Below, one piece after another: positions 57,803 to 63,532 of a DNA stretch of 64,000 nucleotides (position 1 is its first letter; every line of letters begins with the position of its first letter). A model generated the notes under the pieces. That model worked only from the letters and a program-made list of their open reading frames with translations, was not told the DNA's origin and did no database searches. The stretch is from an uncultured Acidobacteriota bacterium (lineage in GTDB: Bacteria > Acidobacteriota > Terriglobia > Acidiferrales > UBA7541). A program made the position numbers and the translations under genes. The DNA lies in contig CAWCPO010000013.1 of NCBI GenBank assembly GCA_963797345.1, positions 18,830 through 82,829 on the forward strand, written 5' to 3'.

Positions 57803-58219
57803 ATGAAGTCTCGTCCAACCCAACTCGGTGTGCGCAAGAATACAGCGTCCTCAAGACAGCATGCCCCGCGCCTTTCAACAGGTACCGACTCGAATGCGCC
57901 TTGCATTGATGAAGGCGTCTCGGAAACAGAACGCTCTTCGATCCGCAACGATGGTCAAGCAGCAGAGTTTCAAGACGAACTGCATGCCGCGTCACAACAC
58001 GCGGCCACAGTGGGAAAAGAACGACACGAAGACCACCTTCTGACAGTTCACGAAGTAGCCGAGTTGTTGCGGGTGCCCGTGTCCTGGGTCTATGGACGCA
58101 TGCGTAGACGATCCACAGAGCGATTGCCCGCTTACCGTCTCGGGAAGTACTGGCGTTTCAGTGAGAGCGAAATACGTGCATGGGTTAAACGTCAGCATGG
58201 AGGCCAGCATGCTGCTTGA
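57803..58219 (+). CDS. xis: excisionase-family (MerR-like HTH_17) DNA-binding protein; start uncertain (58010 GTG possible)
   Basis: LLTVHEVAELLRVPVSWVYGRMRRR...LPAYRLGKYWRFSESEIRAWV is the classic excisionase/AlpA-type motif. Confidence 0.7.
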   Translation: MKSRPTQLGVRKNTASSRQHAPRLSTGTDSNAPCIDEGVSETERSSIRNDGQAAEFQDELHAASQHAATVGKERHEDHLLTVHEVAELLRVPVSWVYGRMRRRSTERLPAYRLGKYWRFSESEIRAWVKRQHGGQHAA

Positions 58220-58280
58220 TAGCAGAGCTACACTCATAGCTGACACAGGACAAGCCAAGCGGGCCATCGAAGGAGGAACG

Positions 58281-59449
58281 ATGGTTCGCAGGCGGTATCA
58301 ACGAGGTTCGCTTTTCAAGCGCGGCAAACGTGAAAGGGTCTGGGTTGCCCGCTGGTGGGAGGATGTGATCAACGCGGACGGAACAATGGGAAGGATGCGC
58401 CGTTCAATGGTAATCGGTACGGTTGCAGAACTAACCACGCGCCGTCTCGCCATGCATGCTCTCTCGCAGCGGCTCCTGCTTTTGAACAATGGGAGCCAAC
58501 ATCCACAAGCCATGCGCACGTTGAAGGACTTTGTGCGAATGGATTGGGAACCAGTAGTGCTTCCGACCCTTAAGTACGCAACACAAATGCATTACAAGTA
58601 CATGCTCCGCGTTCATCTGATTCCAGCATTTGGTGAACGACGGCTCCCTGATATTTCGCGCGCGGCGATTCAAGTATTGTTGGCCGCAAAGCTTCGCGAC
58701 GGGCTTTCTTGGGAGACCGTACATCACATCCGATGTGCGCTGAGCAAAGTGCTGGGTACTGCGGAGGAGTGGGGCTATATCTCCGACAATCCAGTACGCA
58801 AGACGCGACTCCCGAGAAGGGATTGCACTTCAGAACGGCCCATCGTTACGCCACAGCAAGTGAAGCGTCTGACAACCGCTCTTCCAGAGCCCGCCAAATC
58901 CATCGCGCTGCTTTTAGTGCTGACGGGATTACGAATTGGCGAGCTTCTCGCGCTTCGATGGAAGAACGCGGACCTGGACGACCAAATGCTGCGCGTAACC
59001 GAAACCGTTTACGAGGGGCACTTCGACAAGCCAAAGACAAAGCGAAGTGTCCGTGCAATTCCATTGTGTCGAGAAGCTGTGTCGATACTCTCCTCTTTGC
59101 GCCAAGATGCATGTGAACCTGAGCAATTAGTCTTCGCGACTTGCTCAGGCCGTCCACTGTGCCGGCGAAACTTCTGCAGCGCCAATTGCGACCTACGTGC
59201 AAGGAACTCGGTTTGCCACGAATTACGTGGCATGCCTTGCGCCACTGCCACGCGACGTTGCTGGACGTTGTAGGAGCACCGCTGGGCACCGTGCAGGCGC
59301 TTTTAGGCCACGCATCGCCGGAAGTTACACGGCAAATTTATCTGCACGCGATTCCGGAGGAACAGCGCAGAGCGGTTGAAAAGGTCGAGAAGCTCCTTAT
59401 TGGACCCAAATGGACCCAAGTTTCGGGAGCCGAGCAAAGGCCGAATTAG
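58281..59449 (+). pseudogene. int: tyrosine recombinase/integrase with a -1 frame break at about 59159-59162
   Basis: GAAGGAGGAACG-ATG start. MVRRRYQRGSLFKRGKRERVWVARWWEDV N-terminus and LTGLRIGELLALRW (Arg I) in frame A. HALRHCHATLL and RQIYLH (Tyr) in the frame of ORF 59141..59449. Confidence 0.9.
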
Positions 59450-59520
59450 CAAGTGATTGAAATGCAGGGAGATGTTGGTGGACGTGGCCGGGATCGAACC
59501 GGCGACCCCCTGCTTGCAAA
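59153..59520. repeat. 368-bp direct repeat, copy 2, including att core (c) at 59476-59520
   Basis: Identical to 28808-29175. The core is followed by unrelated sequence, not by a tRNA 5' half. Confidence 0.9.
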
Positions 59521-59697
59521 TGAGATTTAAGAATGCTATGTGGTTTTCGTTTCTTGCCTTTACCTATGTCGTGGTACACGGTTTTTGACGGTATTTGGCA
59601 GCATTTGTTCCCAAGTTGTTCCCGAATTTTTTTCGTGCCTGACCCCCTGCTTGCGCGTAGTTTACTGTGACAAGCTGCGACAGGTTACCGTGACGGC

Positions 59698-60540
59698 CTA
59701 ACCTCCGCTTTCGGGAGGCAGAGGCTTGTCCGGCGTGATGGCCGAGATGATTTCGGAAGCGGTGCGCTGGACGAGTTCGAGGCTCTCAAGCAGCACAACG
59801 GCGTCGCCATACCACAACGAGATGTAATCCGCGCTCGACGTTCCGGTCTCCAGGCCGATTGCTTGGCAAACCACAAACGCGACGGCCTCGGCTTCCGTTT
59901 CACGGATGCGCTTCGTCGTGCTTGCGCGGCGCTCGGTCCGGTGAAGTCGCTCGTGGGCTATTTCGTGTACCAGCGTTGCCACGGTTTCAGCCGGAGACTG
60001 GCCGGGTAACAGCTTAATCTTCCCGCCTTCTGAGATGCCCTTCGCGGGCGCGATGTCCTCCGAATATTCAAGCGCAATGCCTTGGTCCTGAATGAATTGT
60101 TCGAGCTGCTCGCGATGCACACCTGGATCGCCGTTGACGCTGCCGATTTGGGGCAACGGATTTCCTGCGGTCATACTCTCGTCGAAAACATAAACGGCAC
60201 GGAAGCCCGTCAGTGCGCGGGAGTCTTTGGAATCCAGCTTGGCATTTTCCCCTTCGTTGCTTTCGTCCCTGCGGCGACGAAACACGGGGGCAAGGATCAT
60301 GATTCCCTTCTCGCCTTTCTTGACGTATCGTCCCAACGATTTCCAGGTCTGATACCCGGCCACGCGCGTTGCTTGCGGGCAGGTTCGCGCGATAAGCATC
60401 ACGTTGAAAAAACTGTAACGGTGGAATCTGCCCATTGCTGCGAGATAATTCGTCAACGCTTCGCTGTGACCGGCATTGAGCGCCGTGACTAGCTCCTCGA
60501 TTGCCTTGCTTGTGATTTGTTTGATTTGTTCTGATTTCAT
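59698..60540 (-). CDS. ardC: ArdC-like antirestriction protein (ssDNA-binding N-domain plus zincin-like metallopeptidase)
   Basis: 280 aa. FHRYSFFNVMLI and GYQTWKSLGRYVKKGEKGI N-domain blocks. HEIAHERLH metallopeptidase motif. Confidence 0.85.
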   Translation of the reverse strand: MKSEQIKQITSKAIEELVTALNAGHSEALTNYLAAMGRFHRYSFFNVMLIARTCPQATRVAGYQTWKSLGRYVKKGEKGIMILAPVFRRRRDESNEGENAKLDSKDSRALTGFRAVYVFDESMTAGNPLPQIGSVNGDPGVHREQLEQFIQDQGIALEYSEDIAPAKGISEGGKIKLLPGQSPAETVATLVHEIAHERLHRTERRASTTKRIRETEAEAVAFVVCQAIGLETGTSSADYISLWYGDAVVLLESLELVQRTASEIISAITPDKPLPPESGG

Positions 60541-60554
60541 TTTTCTTTTCCTTT

Positions 60555-60616
60555 CGGTGAGTTTCGCTTCGGTCCCTTCAACCAGGCACAGGGACCGAAG
60601 CGAAACGCACTCACCG
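60555..60616 (-). promoter_or_regulatory. 62-nt bulged hairpin immediately 5' of the ardC RBS
   Basis: 7-bp plus 16-bp stems (CGGTGAG/CTCACCG; TTTCGCTTCGGTCCCT/AGGGACCGAAGCGAAA), a 4-nt bulge and a 12-nt loop. Ends 15 nt before the start codon. Confidence 0.5.
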
Positions 60617-60975
60617 GAAGGACAAGGCGGAAGTGGCTCACTGTTTGCGGCTGGAGCGGGTTGCAGCGGGCGTGACAGATCGCCATTTACCTGGCGCGAC
60701 CGTTGCTAGCGGAAGCCAGATGGGGCAAGCTTGGAAAGTCAATCTTAAATCGCTACCGAATTACCGACAATCCTCCACAAATCTGGTGAGCGTTAACTTA
60801 GAAGGTGTGACGGATCATTACATGATACGTGGCCTGCTTTGTTCTTCTGCAACTTACGTGTTCGGTGTTGTACGGTGTGTGGCATGATTGCGGCACGTTC
60901 TGCTCCCAAACTTGCTCCTATATTTGTGCTCTGACTAGCTGCCAGAATTTTAGAGGGTCAGCTACAGGGTGTTTT

Positions 60976-61209
60976 CTACGCCAGTTCAATCGTTACTCGC
61001 CGTCCGACCATCGCGGCCGCTCGTTGCAGGCTAGAAAGCGTGATGTCGCTCTTCGGATCAAGGAGTCGGTCAACCTGGGTGGGGCTTGTCTTGAGCAGAG
61101 CAGCACCAAGCGCTACGCCGAAAAGGTCCCGCCCACACTTGATGCTGGTCAGAATTGGTTGTTGACCATTTTCTCGCGGACTTCTTGAATCCAAGCACGA
61201 CGGCGTCAA
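60976..61209 (-). CDS. XRE-family HTH protein (antitoxin-like)
   Basis: 77 aa. The C-terminal TSPTQVDRLLDPKSDITLSSLQRAAAMVGRRVTIEL matches the HTH_3/XRE helix-3-onward pattern. 4-nt overlap with the upstream gene. Confidence 0.55.
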   Translation of the reverse strand: MTPSCLDSRSPRENGQQPILTSIKCGRDLFGVALGAALLKTSPTQVDRLLDPKSDITLSSLQRAAAMVGRRVTIELA

Positions 61210-61877
61210 GGTGGTTGAGCATTTCTCTGATCGAGGCTTTTGTCAAAGCGCATATACCTTTCCTTGTCGATCTCGCCGATGATCTGAAGTAGGCTCATTG
61301 CCATTCTCACGCACCCTTCTGCCTCAGGTTTGCCAAATTGTGCCTGGCCGAAATGCAATATCTTGTTCCGCTTGCGAAATAACTCTTCGGCGAAATACGA
61401 TTTCGGCGACCTGGCTCCTATATTCTGGTGAATCTGTTGGAGGACTGTTGCTAAATCCGTTCGACGGACCAGGAAAGCGTCGAAGTTTTCACCAACGAGT
61501 AGTTGAGTGATACAGTCGAGCTTGCCCGTAATACCGCCTTGGACTCTCCGGAACTCCTCTTCCCACGCGTCAGTGTGGGTTTGCGTTACTTCACATGGGA
61601 TCAGGCCAGCATCGAGCATTTTCCACTTGGAGTGCAAAAATGCCAGTTCGCATTCGACACACATCGCACTCAGGATGATTGCAAGTGAAAAGTCTTCGCC
61701 TAGCAATTCAGCTTCGGCCCGGCAAAGCACTCTGCGGCTAACGGGTATGCTGGATTGCACGACATAGATGGTAGCGCCGCACTCGCACTGTAAGTCCGGG
61801 TACGGCTCATTTCCCTTCGTCTCAACGGTGAGACGTTTTCCACATGTCGGGCAAGGTACCAACATCGGGAACTTCAT
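61206..61877 (-). CDS. zinc-ribbon protein with a HEPN-like (Rx4-6H) helical domain
   Basis: 223 aa. CPTCGKRL...CECG ribbon. ELFRKRNKILHFGQ contains the R-N-x-x-x-H motif typical of HEPN/DUF4145 RNases. Confidence 0.5.
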   Translation of the reverse strand: MKFPMLVPCPTCGKRLTVETKGNEPYPDLQCECGATIYVVQSSIPVSRRVLCRAEAELLGEDFSLAIILSAMCVECELAFLHSKWKMLDAGLIPCEVTQTHTDAWEEEFRRVQGGITGKLDCITQLLVGENFDAFLVRRTDLATVLQQIHQNIGARSPKSYFAEELFRKRNKILHFGQAQFGKPEAEGCVRMAMSLLQIIGEIDKERYMRFDKSLDQRNAQPP

Positions 61878-62003
61878 GACCGGAAGTGTAGACCGAGTGA
61901 GCGTTTGTAGCTATGTTTCTCGAAGGTCTCCTGAGGCAGTGCAGACCGGCAATGACCGACCGGACGCCAACTCGCCGCAGATGTTGAGAACGGAGAATGA
62001 ACC

Positions 62004-62228
62004 ATGAAGCGAGAACCGATGTGGGCGCATTGGGACGGCTCGGGCTACTCGAAACTCTACCAACTATACCGAAGAGTTCAAATAGTGGCTGTCAAATTAA
62101 ACAGACGCAGGAAACTTAGATGGGTGCCAATCAAAAGGTACAACAGTGAGCTTTACGCCATTTCGGACCAACTGAAGGTGCTCGATGGAGAGTACGATCG
62201 GCAAAGAAGGAAAGCCCCGAGGCGCTGA
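62004..62228 (+). CDS. hypothetical basic protein (74 aa)
   Basis: ORF only. Partly overlapped by an antisense ORF (62153..62578). Coding strand unresolved. Confidence 0.25.
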   Translation: MKREPMWAHWDGSGYSKLYQLYRRVQIVAVKLNRRRKLRWVPIKRYNSELYAISDQLKVLDGEYDRQRRKAPRR

Positions 62229-62527
62229 ACGAACGGCACGTCGTCTCCTTTACGCACCAAGCGCACCTTGCTGCGATGCATGTTCATTATCTGAAGGAAG
62301 CACAGCGCTCTGTTTTGCGAGGTGGCGAGCCCAGAAGGAAGGCTGGCCGAGAGAGTAACGGAAAGTTCTGAGTTGCTGATCTTGTACATCTGCACGACTG
62401 TTCCATTGTGGGCTAGCTGTTCGCCAACTAAGCTACCCGACATAGAGGGAACGCTGATGAAAATCATGCGCATGGTTATTGGGTTCTTCTGCTGGCTGTT
62501 GCAGGAGGCACGGCTCACGGGCAAATT

Positions 62528-63532
62528 GTGAATCGAGTAGCCGAAGTTTCGAATTCTGTGCGCGCACGAGACCGCCAATCGCCAGCCACACGGAGGAGCA
62601 TACCAGCGATAGCCAAAGCCGCAGATGGGGCTATCGTATCAATCGTCCTGTCGGACAAAGATGGTCACGCTATCGCCCAAGGCAGCGGCTTCGTTGTAAG
62701 CAGCGATGGCATCATCATGACAAATTATCACGTCATTGAGGAAGGTAGTTCCGCCATCGTTAAGCTCCCTGACGGCGCATTCTTTGTTGTCGATGGATTG
62801 CTCGCATCCGACAAAGCCCGCGATATGGCCATCATCAAGGCACACGGCAAAAACTTTCGGACGCTCACTCTCGGAAATTCGGATCGACTTCAAGTAGGAG
62901 AGGAAGTCGTTGCTATTGGTAATCCGCTTTCTCTCGAATCGACCGTCTCAAATGGCATAGTCAGTGGGATCCGTACAGTCGAGGAGAAGGGCGGCAAGTA
63001 CTTGCAAATCACCGCGCCCATCTCCCCCGGTAGCAGCGGCGGGCCACTTTTCAATATGGCGGGACAGGTAATTGGGATCACAACTATGTACATCCAAGGA
63101 GGCGAAAACTTAAATTTCGCAATCCCCATAAATGACGCCAAACCTCTGCTGGCGGAATCCGAAGGGCCAGAGGCGGCAGCCGATCTATCGGGCGATTACG
63201 CCTGCGATGTTGATGTCATTCCGATGCATTTAACTCTCAACGTGTCGGGACAGGTCCTCGTTCTAACTATTCATTCTAGTAACGGGGCAGAGGGGGAGAC
63301 GCGTTTCCACCGGGATGGCCATACATGGATCGAAGAAGGTGCGGGGGATTATCTTTACAAGCTCGGAGAACCCACCCCTACTTTTTCCGTTACGAATACA
63401 ATGCGCTTTTTTCTCCGCAATACGTTCGTGTATGACAAATCTCGAGGAGAAATGTACGCCGGCGCCGAGACAGTAGGCTATCCTCCGTACCTAACTCTTT
63501 CCGGAACCTGCAAGCGGGTGCCAGCAAAATAA
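62528..63532 (+). CDS. trypsin-like (S1C/HtrA-type) serine protease without PDZ or signal peptide, plus an unknown 130-aa C-terminal domain
   Basis: GSGFVVSSDGIIMTNYHV (His), DMAIIK (Asp), and TAPISPGSSGGPLFN (Ser) catalytic blocks. GTG start. Confidence 0.8.
   Translation: MNRVAEVSNSVRARDRQSPATRRSIPAIAKAADGAIVSIVLSDKDGHAIAQGSGFVVSSDGIIMTNYHVIEEGSSAIVKLPDGAFFVVDGLLASDKARDMAIIKAHGKNFRTLTLGNSDRLQVGEEVVAIGNPLSLESTVSNGIVSGIRTVEEKGGKYLQITAPISPGSSGGPLFNMAGQVIGITTMYIQGGENLNFAIPINDAKPLLAESEGPEAAADLSGDYACDVDVIPMHLTLNVSGQVLVLTIHSSNGAEGETRFHRDGHTWIEEGAGDYLYKLGEPTPTFSVTNTMRFFLRNTFVYDKSRGEMYAGAETVGYPPYLTLSGTCKRVPAK

What the first reader, a model, noticed from the sequence alone, without database searches (positions are those of the whole stretch)
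60976..61877. Zinc-ribbon/HEPN-like protein plus overlapping XRE-HTH gene: candidate toxin-antitoxin or abortive-infection pair
The 223-aa protein has an N-terminal CxxC...CxC ribbon. Its helical domain contains FRKRNKILHFG, which fits the Rx4-6H (often R-N-x-x-x-H) catalytic motif of HEPN RNases and DUF4145-type domains. Its stop overlaps by 4 nt the start of a 77-aa protein whose C-terminal half looks like an XRE-family HTH. HEPN toxins normally pair with MNT antitoxins. A ribbon-HEPN with an XRE partner in toxin-first order is not a combination I recognise.
Basis: inference. Interest (0 to 1): 0.65.

Follow-up and report, generated by a model that had tools for sequence, protein, structure and literature searches.

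The report
Standalone zinc-ribbon HEPN RNase gene
The 223-aa zinc-ribbon plus HEPN-type RNase protein is real and belongs to an unnamed family built like known single-gene phage-defence RNases, but its supposed antitoxin partner is only the broken tail of an unrelated antitoxin gene.

Summary
Both ORFs, the Cys4 ribbon, the RNKILH motif and the 4-nt TTGA overlap are in the sequence as described. The HEPN reading is supported. R170, N171 and H175 are each kept in 99% of 90 relatives that are only 22-44% identical. The motif lies at the end of helix 3 of a confident AlphaFold model. The only consistent fold and Pfam matches are HEPN domains, and all of them are sub-threshold.

The toxin-antitoxin reading fails. 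Only the last 41 codons of the 77-aa ORF (61104-60982) are homologous to anything. They match, at 93-98% identity, the C-terminus of an abundant 92-aa HigA-type antitoxin. That antitoxin elsewhere follows a Gp49/HigB toxin. Its first 50 codons and the toxin gene are absent from the window. None of 48 homologue loci (21 distinct downstream contexts) carries this ORF. Synteny with the closest relative ends 25 nt before the HEPN stop codon.

The best reading is a partnerless Zn-ribbon-HEPN RNase, the architecture of RAZR/PD-T7-4 and DS-38. It does not match the DUF4145 model, and no PD-T7-4 model was among the PADLOC hits listed. The family has at least 349 clusters, all unnamed, mostly from Acidobacteriota. 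It is a new variant of a known kind and of modest interest.

The parts
61206..61877 (-). Gene for the 223-aa Zn-ribbon-HEPN protein (P0001), the real feature
   Evidence: ORF. There are 29 close homologues and 349 clusters at 50% identity. Substitutions against L043 are biased to third codon positions. AlphaFold2 gives pLDDT 89.6 and pTM 0.85.
61752..61877 (-). N-terminal Cys4 zinc ribbon (residues 1-42; C9, C12, C31, C33)
   Evidence: The model shows four short beta strands. The cysteines are kept in 94-98% of 90 relatives. Only sub-threshold zinc-ribbon Pfam hits were found. With the insert, it is the most variable part of the protein: pairwise identity 0.54 against 0.81 for helix 2.
61233..61745 (-). 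All-helical HEPN-like domain (residues about 45-215)
   Evidence: Helices are at 46-59, 63-89, an insert at 99-149, 158-176 and 183-220. The domain-only model has pLDDT 94.3. All Foldseek hits with probability 0.44 or higher are HEPN proteins. HEPN_RiboL-PSP gives sub-threshold hits in 14 of 90 members.
61353..61370 (-). RNKILH, an Rx4H motif (R170, N171, H175) and the predicted RNase active site
   Evidence: Read from the sequence. R, N and H are each kept in 99% of 90 diverse relatives. The motif sits at the C-terminal end of helix 158-176, before the loop to the last helix. That is the position given for HEPN domains in PMC3710099.
60976..61209 (-). Mechanical 77-aa ORF with a TTG start; not an intact gene
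   Evidence: ORF. Residues 1-35 have no homologue, and no full-length match exists in the protein database. The ORF is absent from all 48 homologue loci.
60978..61104 (-). 3' remnant (last 41 codons) of a 92-aa HigA-type XRE antitoxin gene
   Evidence: The remnant is 93-98% identical in protein to the C-terminus of more than 4,600 proteins of about 92 aa. tblastn finds only residues 51-91 of that protein in the window, in any frame. DNA homology of 78-86% starts sharply at 61104. The intact gene follows a Gp49 (PF05973) toxin with a 4-nt overlap in L037-L042.
61105..61231 (.). Junction segment between the end of synteny with the closest relative (61231) and the higA remnant (61104). It holds the last 8 codons and stop of the HEPN gene and the TTG 'start' of the 77-aa ORF.
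   Evidence: Alignment with L043-L045 runs at 80-84% nucleotide identity from 63143 (62390 for L043) to 61231 and then stops. Homology to all other relatives ends at 61231-61267.
62004..62228 (+). Divergent 74-aa ORF, syntenic in the closest relatives; gene status uncertain
   Evidence: It is 88% identical in protein in L043-L045 at the same position. However, substitutions are not clearly biased to third positions ([4,6,10]), and the intergenic DNA is about equally conserved by eye in the printed alignment. It has no Pfam hit.
62528..63532 (+). Trypsin_2 serine protease, a syntenic divergent neighbour
   Evidence: Pfam E = 3.5e-33. Homologues lie next to the HEPN gene in L001/L002 and L044/L045.
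59698..60540 (-). ArdC-like protein (ArdcN domain plus HExxH metallopeptidase), a mobile-element gene downstream
   Evidence: Pfam ArdcN E = 1.3e-11. ArdC homologues (52-61% identical) lie upstream and divergent from the HEPN homologue in L013, L016-L019, L021 and L022.

Best explanation
The 223-aa gene encodes a stand-alone, two-domain protein. An N-terminal Cys4 zinc ribbon is joined by a conserved helix to a divergent HEPN domain.

Inferred mechanism:
- It is a metal-independent endoribonuclease.
- R170, N171 and H175, at the end of core helix 3, form a composite active site when two HEPN domains dimerise.
- It needs no antitoxin. Activity is presumably held off until the variable zinc ribbon, or a change in oligomeric state, senses a trigger. 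This is how the single-gene defence RNase RAZR/PD-T7-4 works.
- The likely role is abortive-infection-type defence, or conflict between mobile elements.

The downstream 'XRE gene' is not a partner. It is the last 41 codons of a higA-type antitoxin gene, left by a rearrangement at the 3' end of the HEPN gene, in a stretch of decaying mobile DNA (ArdC gene, tRNA-like att fragment, frameshifted integrase).

Shown here: the domain architecture, motif conservation, motif position, the lack of a conserved partner, and the remnant nature of the ORF. Inferred only: RNase activity, dimerisation, trigger sensing and the defence role.
For: 1) The motif. R170, N171 and H175 are each kept in 99%, and G177 in 92%, of 90 relatives that are 22-44% identical to the query. 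The four cysteines are kept in 94-98%.

2) The fold. The AlphaFold2 model has pLDDT 89.6, and the domain-only model 94.3. The domain has helices 46-59 and 63-89, a helical insert, helix 158-176 ending in RNKILH, a loop, and helix 183-220. [quoted passage not shown]

3) Fold search. Every PDB hit with probability 0.44 or higher is a HEPN protein: 1ufb 0.97, 2hsb 0.92, 1wol 0.77, 4nqf 0.69, 2q00 0.60 and Csm6 5fsh 0.44, with TM-scores normalised to the target of 0.49-0.60 for the first five (0.18 for the 448-residue Csm6 chain). Non-HEPN hits have probability 0.16 or lower.

4) Profile search. The only non-ribbon Pfam family hit repeatedly is HEPN_RiboL-PSP, in 14 of 90 members with best E = 0.0012. 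Those matches, and single HEPN_Apea and HEPN hits, are colinear with the domain. Scattered PADLOC hits are to Csx1, CARF_HEPN, Cas13a and Cas13d.

5) No conserved partner. Of the 48 homologue loci, the 39 with at least 300 nt of downstream sequence fall into 21 distinct downstream contexts. None has a higA or p77 hit.

6) The remnant.

7) Precedent. RAZR is a Cys4 ribbon plus a DUF4145-HEPN domain. It is a single-gene abortive-infection system, and its zinc-finger domain is its most variable region and sets specificity (PMC13017515). DS-38 is a second validated zinc-finger-HEPN system (bioRxiv 10.1101/2025.01.08.631726). Here too the ribbon is more variable than the catalytic helices.

8) Context. 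Some neighbourhoods hold mobile or defence-type genes: ArdC, ParB-like, a Type III REase, PDC-S31/DUF2971, SLFN_AlbA_2, Fic and integrases.
Against: - No match to a HEPN family is statistically significant. The best Foldseek E-value is 0.19, Pfam scores are 12-14 bits against a 28.4-bit cut-off, and there is no PDB hit by sequence.
- No match to DUF4145 was listed, and no PD-T7-4 model was among the PADLOC families listed. The RAZR structures 9Y9C and 9Y6U were not among the 50 Foldseek hits listed in either PDB search.
- Some contexts are plain chromosomal. In a Phycisphaerales genome the gene lies between a T2SSF gene and a glycoside hydrolase. In L008/L009 it lies among housekeeping genes. 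Defence-island enrichment is therefore not shown.
- No relative was found in sequenced phages or plasmids, or in viral contigs.
- In 11 related loci a 251-aa protein always follows the gene, so a partner in that subclade is not excluded.
- Nothing here tests RNase activity, toxicity or dimerisation.
Confidence: 0.6

Rival explanations
1. One reading: the ribbon-HEPN protein is a toxin and the overlapping 77-aa XRE-HTH protein is its antitoxin, or an abortive-infection partner, in toxin-first order.
For: The two ORFs are on the same strand and overlap by 4 nt (TTGA). The C-terminal half of the ORF does come from an XRE-type antitoxin family.
Against: - Only 41 of the 92 codons of that antitoxin are present. 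The break falls inside the first HTH helix, and the N-terminal 50 residues are absent in every frame.
- That family's real partner is a Gp49/HigB toxin.
- The ORF is absent from all 48 homologue loci and from a 5.8-billion-protein database as a full-length product.
- It has a TTG start, and I see no Shine-Dalgarno-like sequence upstream by eye.
- The overlap lies beyond the synteny break at 61231.
Confidence: 0.03
2. The HEPN protein is the toxin or effector of a two-gene system whose partner varies between lineages: the 251-aa protein downstream in L007 and L014-L023, the 191-aa protein in L008-L010, or the 205-aa CxxC protein upstream in L004-L006. In the window that partner was lost in the rearrangement at 61231.
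For: A same-strand neighbour lies 53-64 nt away in 11 loci (251-aa protein), 3 loci (191-aa) and 3 loci (205-aa). The 191-aa protein has a very weak NTP_transf_5 hit (E = 0.09), which recalls HEPN-MNT pairs.
Against: - The neighbours are unrelated to one another.
- The 11 loci share a whole syntenic block (ArdC, HEPN, 251-aa, 155-aa, DUF5677), so the adjacency may be inherited rather than functional.
- Many loci have no same-strand neighbour at all, including L043, L046, L049 and L051.
- The window's copy keeps every conserved residue without such a partner, which is unexpected for an orphaned toxin.
Confidence: 0.12
3. The protein is a housekeeping or regulatory RNA-processing enzyme, or a non-catalytic nucleic-acid-binding protein, and is unrelated to defence. 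Its position beside mobile DNA in the window is incidental.
For: Contexts are chromosomal in a Phycisphaerales genome and in L008/L009. Synteny with a trypsin-like protease is conserved in three lineages. There is no PADLOC hit, and the family is absent from phages and plasmids.
Against: - The distribution is patchy. Only 7 loci were found in 185,579 species-representative genomes with one pattern, and none with another.
- There are 21 different downstream contexts.
- The gene often lies next to ArdC, integrase, restriction or TA genes.
- A fast-evolving ribbon with a conserved active site is typical of conflict genes.
Confidence: 0.15
4. It is a cargo gene of ArdC-bearing conjugative or integrative elements and serves the element itself, for example in anti-defence, exclusion of competing elements, or addiction, rather than defending the host against phage.
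For: ArdC is adjacent in the window and in 7 other loci, in two different arrangements. ParB-like, T4SS and integrase genes lie nearby. A hairpin precedes ArdC in the window and in the four loci checked (L013, L016, L019, L022), as expected of a regulated leading-region gene.
Against: Most family contexts lack ArdC. No relative is present in 72,556 plasmids. No anti-defence HEPN precedent was found in the papers read.
Confidence: 0.1

Closest known systems
RAZR / PD-T7-4 (ring-activated zinc-finger RNase; Zhang et al., Nature 2026, PMC13017515)
   Same: - Single polypeptide of about 200 aa.
- N-terminal Cys4 zinc ribbon, a conserved linker, and a C-terminal divergent HEPN domain with an essential R and H.
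- No antitoxin gene.
- The ribbon is more variable than the catalytic core.
   Different: - RAZR's HEPN domain is DUF4145. No member here was listed as matching DUF4145, and no PD-T7-4 model was among the PADLOC families listed.
- The catalytic residues are spaced differently: R146 and H154 in RAZR against R170-x4-H175 here.
- RAZR structures were not among the 50 Foldseek hits listed in either search.
- The hosts are Acidobacteriota and Planctomycetota, not Enterobacteria.
- Triggers, oligomerisation and defence are untested here.
DS-38 (DefensePredictor; bioRxiv 10.1101/2025.01.08.631726)
   Same: A validated defence protein described as having HEPN and zinc-finger domains. Its zinc finger differs from that of PD-T7-4, so this architecture has more than one defence family.
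   Different: I had no DS-38 sequence, so homology could not be tested.
Ribo L-PSP-HEPN (PF18735) and the AbiD/AbiF-like HEPN clade (Anantharaman et al. 2013, PMC3710099)
   Same: It is the only helical-domain Pfam family hit repeatedly (14 of 90 members). The matches are colinear and cover the Rx4H region. The Rx4H motif with N after R is conserved. Zinc-ribbon fusions are listed for DUF4145 and one other HEPN family in Table 1 of that paper.
   Different: All scores are below the 28.4-bit cut-off (12-14 bits; best E = 0.0012). There is no L-PSP fusion and no ParB operon, except for an incidental ParB-like gene in L019.
HEPN-MNT and other type II toxin-antitoxin pairs
   Same: A HEPN RNase that could act as a toxin. 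The region also holds a relic of a HigBA-type TA module.
   Different: There is no MNT and no conserved adjacent gene. The adjacent XRE ORF is a truncated higA from a different TA family (Gp49/HigB-HigA).

Membership tests
HEPN superfamily | Conserved Rx4-6H motif with a polar residue (N, D or H) right after R | tested here: met
   R170-N171-K-I-L-H175. R, N and H are each kept in 99% of 90 relatives. Definition from PMC3710099.
HEPN superfamily | [quoted passage not shown] | tested here: met
   The AlphaFold2 models (pLDDT 89.6 and 94.3) show helices 46-59 and 63-89, an insert at 99-149, helix 158-176 ending in the motif, a loop at 177-182 and helix 183-220. This rests on a predicted structure, not a solved one.
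HEPN superfamily | Significant profile or structure match to an established HEPN family | tested here: inconclusive
   All Foldseek hits with probability 0.44 or higher are HEPN proteins, but E-values are 0.19 or worse. Pfam HEPN_RiboL-PSP, HEPN_Apea and HEPN hits are all below their cut-offs. There is no PDB hit by sequence.
HEPN superfamily | Metal-independent RNase activity from a dimeric composite active site | not testable with these tools
   This needs biochemistry or multimer modelling.
RAZR / PD-T7-4 (DUF4145 zinc-finger RNase) | N-terminal Cys4 zinc ribbon plus a C-terminal HEPN domain in one protein, with no partner gene | tested here: met
   RAZR is described.
RAZR / PD-T7-4 (DUF4145 zinc-finger RNase) | HEPN domain matches Pfam DUF4145 (PF13643) | tested here: not met
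   There was no DUF4145 hit for the query at E up to 1. DUF4145 was not among the families listed for 25 members at E up to 5 or 90 members at E up to 1; only the top 25 families were listed. It was also not hit in the 10 members scanned individually.
RAZR / PD-T7-4 (DUF4145 zinc-finger RNase) | Matches the PADLOC model for PD-T7-4 | tested here: not met
   The query has no PADLOC hit. For 90 members, 25 of the 28 families hit were listed and none is named PD-T7-4. That PADLOC-DB 2.0 contains a PD-T7-4 model is from my memory and was not verified here.
RAZR / PD-T7-4 (DUF4145 zinc-finger RNase) | Activation by assembly around phage ring proteins; abortive-infection defence | not testable with these tools
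   This is experimental.
Type II toxin-antitoxin pair (toxin plus XRE antitoxin) | An intact antitoxin gene conserved next to the toxin across relatives | tested here: not met
   The ORF keeps 41 of 92 codons. It is absent from all 48 homologue loci.
HigB(Gp49)-HigA module (applied to the 77-aa ORF) | A full-length HigA of about 92 aa, preceded by a Gp49/HigB toxin gene | tested here: not met
   Intact pairs are seen in L037-L042. In the window, no Gp49 or HigA N-terminal sequence is found in any frame. The ORF is therefore a gene remnant.

The most novel reading that the evidence does not exclude
This is a previously unnamed family of single-protein zinc-ribbon-HEPN immune sensors. It has at least 349 clusters at 50% identity and no Pfam, NCBIfam or PADLOC model. 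By sequence it is independent of RAZR/DUF4145. It is widespread in Acidobacteriota, with outliers in Planctomycetota, and is often carried beside ArdC on integrative elements. Its fast-evolving ribbon would recognise triggers different from those of RAZR.
Probability: 0.35. Interest if true: 0.5.

Novelty: new variant of a known kind. Interest (0 to 1): 0.35.

Why it matters
If it is a defence RNase, this family would show that the ribbon-sensor plus HEPN-effector design of RAZR recurs in a family with no sequence similarity to it that these tools can detect. It would also extend that design to soil Acidobacteriota, whose immune repertoire is poorly known. The variable ribbons would be a set of candidate trigger-recognition modules.

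The finding is also a warning for automated TA or Abi calling. A 4-nt overlap with an HTH-like ORF can arise at a rearrangement junction that left only the tail of an unrelated antitoxin gene.

Tried and rejected
- Family libraries. Pfam, NCBIfam and PADLOC gave nothing for either ORF except sub-threshold zinc-ribbon hits. Lar_restr_allev scored 19.8 bits against a 28.6-bit cut-off, and I treat it as generic ribbon similarity, not as evidence of restriction alleviation.
- Solved structures by sequence. Searches with the single sequence and with two profiles found only zinc-finger noise.
- Viral structures. Foldseek against viral models gave nothing meaningful.
- A majority consensus of the family scanned against Pfam hit ribbons only, and the helical part hit nothing.
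- Searches for relatives. The close-family pattern found none in species-representative genomes. A second pattern found 7 Acidobacteriota MAGs. Nothing was found in IMG/VR viral contigs, sequenced phages or plasmids.
- A frameshifted full-length higA was rejected. No N-terminal HigA or Gp49 sequence is present in any frame.
- A conserved partner was sought. Neighbour clustering found only lineage-specific blocks. The neighbours have no informative Pfam or PADLOC hits apart from a Type III REase and PDC-S31.
- The promoter and terminator scan of 60400-62600 found nothing above shuffled expectation.
- A direct comparison with the RAZR sequence was not possible. The paper has no supplement held as text, and I had no RAZR or DUF4145 sequence.
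- DzbB hits in PADLOC (3 of 90 members, best E = 4.3e-6) could not be localised or interpreted. The one paper held gave no domain information.
Full report
**1. The observation**

The two ORFs exist as described. ORF 61206-61877(-) encodes 223 aa from an ATG. ORF 60976-61209(-) encodes 77 aa from a TTG. Window 61206-61209 reads tcaa, which is TTGA on the minus strand, so the TGA stop and the TTG start overlap by 4 nt. The protein has C9-x2-C12 and C31-x-C33. It also contains FRKRNKILHFG, with RNKILH encoded at 61353-61370. None of Pfam, NCBIfam or PADLOC assigns either ORF to a family. The only hits are sub-threshold zinc-ribbon matches, such as Lar_restr_allev at 19.8 bits against a cut-off of 28.6.

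**2. The 223-aa protein is a real gene of a sizeable unnamed family**

- A word-indexed search found 29 relatives at 49-77% identity. All were unnamed or 'hypothetical' and none carried a Pfam domain.
- An exhaustive profile search found 349 clusters at 50% identity with E up to 1e-3, of which 250 had E up to 1e-10. Most are about 205-235 aa and match end to end.
- A third search with the 90-sequence profile again returned only 'hypothetical protein' names. One was from a Phycisphaerales genome.
- A scan of species-representative genomes with one pattern found 7 loci, all in Acidobacteriota MAGs: Terriglobia, Korobacteraceae and Angelobacter. Another pattern found none.
- Twenty-four further loci came from metagenome contigs.
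- Nothing was found in viral contigs, sequenced phages or plasmids.
- Against the closest relative, substitutions by codon position are [24,28,58]. This indicates purifying selection on the protein.

**3. Is it HEPN?**

*Conservation.* Among 90 members that are only 22-44% identical to the query, the best-kept columns are:
- C9, C12, C31 and C33 (94-98%);
- E57 (97%), D62 (93%), A71 (97%) and W85 (90%);
- F167 (92%), R170 (99%), N171 (99%), H175 (99%) and G177 (92%).

The ribbon cysteines and the R-N-x3-H motif are therefore the defining features of the family.

*Model.* AlphaFold2 with the family alignment gives pLDDT 89.6 and pTM 0.85 for the whole protein, and 94.3 and 0.88 for residues 43-223 alone. 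The model has four short strands forming the ribbon, then helices 46-59 and 63-89, an insert of four short helices (99-149), helix 158-176 with RNKILH at its C-terminal end, a loop, and a long helix 183-220. Anantharaman et al. 2013 describe the HEPN domain as a four-helix core with frequent inserts between helices 2 and 3. [quoted passage not shown] The model fits each of these points.

*Fold search.* No Foldseek hit against the PDB is significant (best E = 0.19). Even so, every hit with probability 0.44 or higher is a HEPN protein: 1ufb 0.97, 2hsb 0.92, 1wol 0.77, 4nqf 0.69, 2q00 0.60 and Csm6 5fsh 0.44. AbiV, TM0613 and sacsin HEPN domains rank lower. Unrelated helical proteins have probability 0.16 or lower and TM-scores of about 0.2.

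*Profile search.* Scanning members one by one against Pfam, the only non-ribbon family hit repeatedly is HEPN_RiboL-PSP. It was hit by 3 of 25 close members and 14 of 90 diverse members, with best E = 0.0012. In three members inspected, the matches are colinear: protein 75-209 against profile 41-186 of 191, 128-202 against 87-178, and 162-202 against 144-186. One member also hit HEPN_Apea (116-208 against 56-131 of 136). Another hit HEPN PF05168 over the first helices (49-83 against 8-42). PADLOC hits were scattered over Csx1, CARF_HEPN, Cas13a and Cas13d.

*Verdict.* HEPN is the only reading the data point to. It is well supported by motif and topology but not proven by any significant alignment.

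**4. The 77-aa ORF is a gene remnant, not a partner**

- The database search returned 4,607 hits. All covered only about 53% of the query, namely its C-terminal 41 residues, at 90-98% identity. They were proteins of about 92 aa that their sources call XRE-type DNA-binding protein, antitoxin HicB, or VapI.
- Their sequences run MSKKHMGSS(I/L)DDFLKEEGIF...ISKARMAALLKTSRTQVDRLLDPKSDITLSSLQRAAAMVGRRVTIELV.
- tblastn of the full 92-aa protein against the window aligns only residues 51-91, to 61104-60982 at 95% identity. The first 50 residues, and the Gp49 part of a fused variant, are found in no frame.
- DNA homology to intact genes is 78-86% and begins abruptly at 61104.
- In six loci (L037-L042) the intact gene follows a 118-aa Gp49 (PF05973, HigB/RelE-type) toxin gene with a 4-nt overlap. 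That toxin is its real partner.
- The break removes helix 1 and part of helix 2 of the HTH unit, going by the position of 'ISKARMAALLKTSRTQVDRLL' (inference).
- Residues 1-35 of the ORF match nothing. The only available start is a TTG, and I see no Shine-Dalgarno-like sequence upstream by eye. No full-length copy of the ORF exists among 5.8 billion predicted proteins.

**5. No co-occurrence, and the overlap lies at a junction**

I collected 48 loci that encode a homologue of the 223-aa protein. None has a tblastn hit to the 77-aa ORF or to full-length HigA. Of these, 39 have at least 300 nt of downstream sequence, and they fall into 21 unrelated downstream contexts.

The closest relative is P0002 (77% identity; loci L043-L045). 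It shares 80-84% nucleotide identity with the window from the trypsin-like protease gene, through a 74-aa divergent ORF and the intergenic region, into the HEPN gene. That alignment stops at 61231, which is 25 nt before the stop codon. Beyond that point L043 continues into an Amidohydro_2 gene. The last 8 codons, the stop codon and the TTG 'start' therefore lie in DNA that is not shared even with the nearest relative.

Downstream of the junction, the window carries:
- the higA tail;
- a strong hairpin;
- an ArdC-like gene;
- a 14-nt direct repeat;
- a tRNA/tmRNA-like 3' end with CCA;
- a convergent tyrosine integrase split between two reading frames, with an excisionase-like HTH_17 gene.

This looks like decaying integrative-element DNA.

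**6. Neighbourhoods**

The recurrent neighbours are lineage-specific:
- a 251-aa protein, followed by 155-aa and DUF5677 proteins, in 11 syntenic loci;
- a 191-aa protein in L008-L010;
- a 205-aa CxxC protein upstream in L004-L006.

These neighbours are unrelated to one another. An ArdC-like gene lies upstream and divergent in 7 loci, and downstream on the same strand in the window.

Other neighbours include a ParB-like gene and a Type III REase (L019), PDC-S31/DUF2971 (L046), SLFN_AlbA_2 (L004), Fic, integrase and T4SS genes (L001/L002), and HicA- and ParE-like ORFs, identified by eye from their sequences (L048, L050). Other contexts are ordinary chromosomal ones. The gene therefore behaves as a mobile, stand-alone cargo gene. 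Enrichment in defence islands is suggested but not demonstrated.

**7. Comparison with known systems**

Zinc-ribbon-HEPN fusions were already listed in 2013 for DUF4145 and one other HEPN family.

RAZR, formerly PD-T7-4, is a single-gene abortive-infection system. It has an N-terminal Cys4 ribbon and a DUF4145 domain that is a divergent HEPN RNase. Its R146 and H154 are essential. It is activated by assembling around phage ring proteins. Its zinc-finger domain is the most variable region and sets specificity (PMC13017515). DS-38 is a second validated zinc-finger-HEPN protein whose finger differs from that of PD-T7-4.

The family studied here has the same architecture, has no partner gene, and has a ribbon more variable than its catalytic helices. 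Mean pairwise identity is 0.54 for the ribbon, 0.81 for helix 2 and 0.73 for the motif helix. The insert is equally variable at 0.52.

It nevertheless fails the membership tests I could run. No DUF4145 hit and no PD-T7-4 PADLOC hit was listed. The motif spacing is Rx4H, whereas RAZR's residues are eight positions apart. RAZR structures were not among the 50 Foldseek hits listed in either search. It works like a RAZR-type protein by analogy, but I do not file it as a member.

**8. Verdict**

The HEPN inference is supported at about 0.75.
- The TA or Abi pair with an XRE partner is refuted, at about 0.03.
- The most likely function is a stand-alone, trigger-activated HEPN RNase in defence or mobile-element conflict. 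The defence role itself stands at about 0.5.
- Novelty: a new variant of a known kind.
- Interest is modest. The architecture has validated precedents. The family itself is uncharacterised, fairly large, and found in under-studied phyla.

Noticed in passing
window 60548-60619 (minus strand), just upstream of the ArdC-like start at 60540; also L013 2346-2435, L016 3728-3781, L019 3727-3780, L022 3726-3779: A strong hairpin (30-nt arms, RNA MFE -50.5 kcal/mol, z = -6.8) sits directly before the ribosome-binding region of the ArdC-like gene. ArdC homologues in four other loci also have an inverted repeat just upstream of their start codon (within about 90 nt), but with a different sequence. The structure is conserved and the sequence is not, so it may be a leader or a single-strand promoter of a leading region. 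Rfam gives only sub-threshold miRNA hits.
   Followed up: partly
window 58092-59449 (+): The tyrosine integrase is split between two reading frames. A 393-aa ORF (58092-59273) holds the SAM-like domain and the start of the catalytic domain. A 102-aa ORF (59141-59449) holds the C-terminal catalytic part (…ITWHALRHCHATLL…). This is either a frameshifted pseudogene or an assembly indel. An HTH_17 excisionase-like gene lies at 57803-58219.
   Followed up: partly
window 59476-59517 (minus strand) and 59641-59654: There is a tRNA/tmRNA-like 3' end (…GGGGGTCGCCGGTTCGATCCCGGCCACGTCCACCA) next to the integrase. Rfam matches tmRNA at E = 0.017, and ARAGORN finds no whole tRNA or tmRNA in the window. A 14-nt direct repeat, GACCCCCTGCTTGC (plus strand), occurs 137 nt away. 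This is probably an att-site remnant. The element's boundaries were not resolved.
   Followed up: partly
window 62004-62228 (+): A 74-aa arginine- and lysine-rich ORF lies divergent from the HEPN gene. It is 88% identical in L043-L045 at the same position. The substitutions are not clearly biased to third positions ([4,6,10]), and the flanking intergenic DNA looks about equally conserved, so whether it is a gene is open.
   Followed up: partly
window 34956-55456 (+): A large RHS-repeat locus. It has an 1,806-aa ORF that I did not scan against any library, followed by at least eight ORFs with RHS-repeat hits and unannotated ORFs between them. It looks like an RHS toxin array with orphan C-terminal cassettes and possible immunity genes.
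   Followed up: no
L007 982-1737; L016 4722-5468; L019 4711-5466 and 8 other loci: A conserved protein of about 251 aa with no Pfam or PADLOC hit always follows the HEPN homologue in one subclade. Its N-terminus (…DFLVDGRIAVEVRRL…) looks to me like a PD-(D/E)xK nuclease motif. It is followed by 155-aa and DUF5677 proteins. This may be an uncharacterised cargo or defence block of ArdC-bearing elements.
   Followed up: partly
L050 5983-7128 and protein P0160 (380 aa): Some family members carry a C-terminal extension of about 170 aa with no recognisable domain.
   Followed up: no
L035/L036 1276-2981: The intact 92-aa HigA-type gene also occurs on a small replicon-like or integrative context: integrase, a 57-aa ORF, higA, RepA_C and ParA. 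The family is extremely abundant (more than 4,600 near-identical C-termini), mostly in Acidobacteriota-type metagenomes.
   Followed up: no
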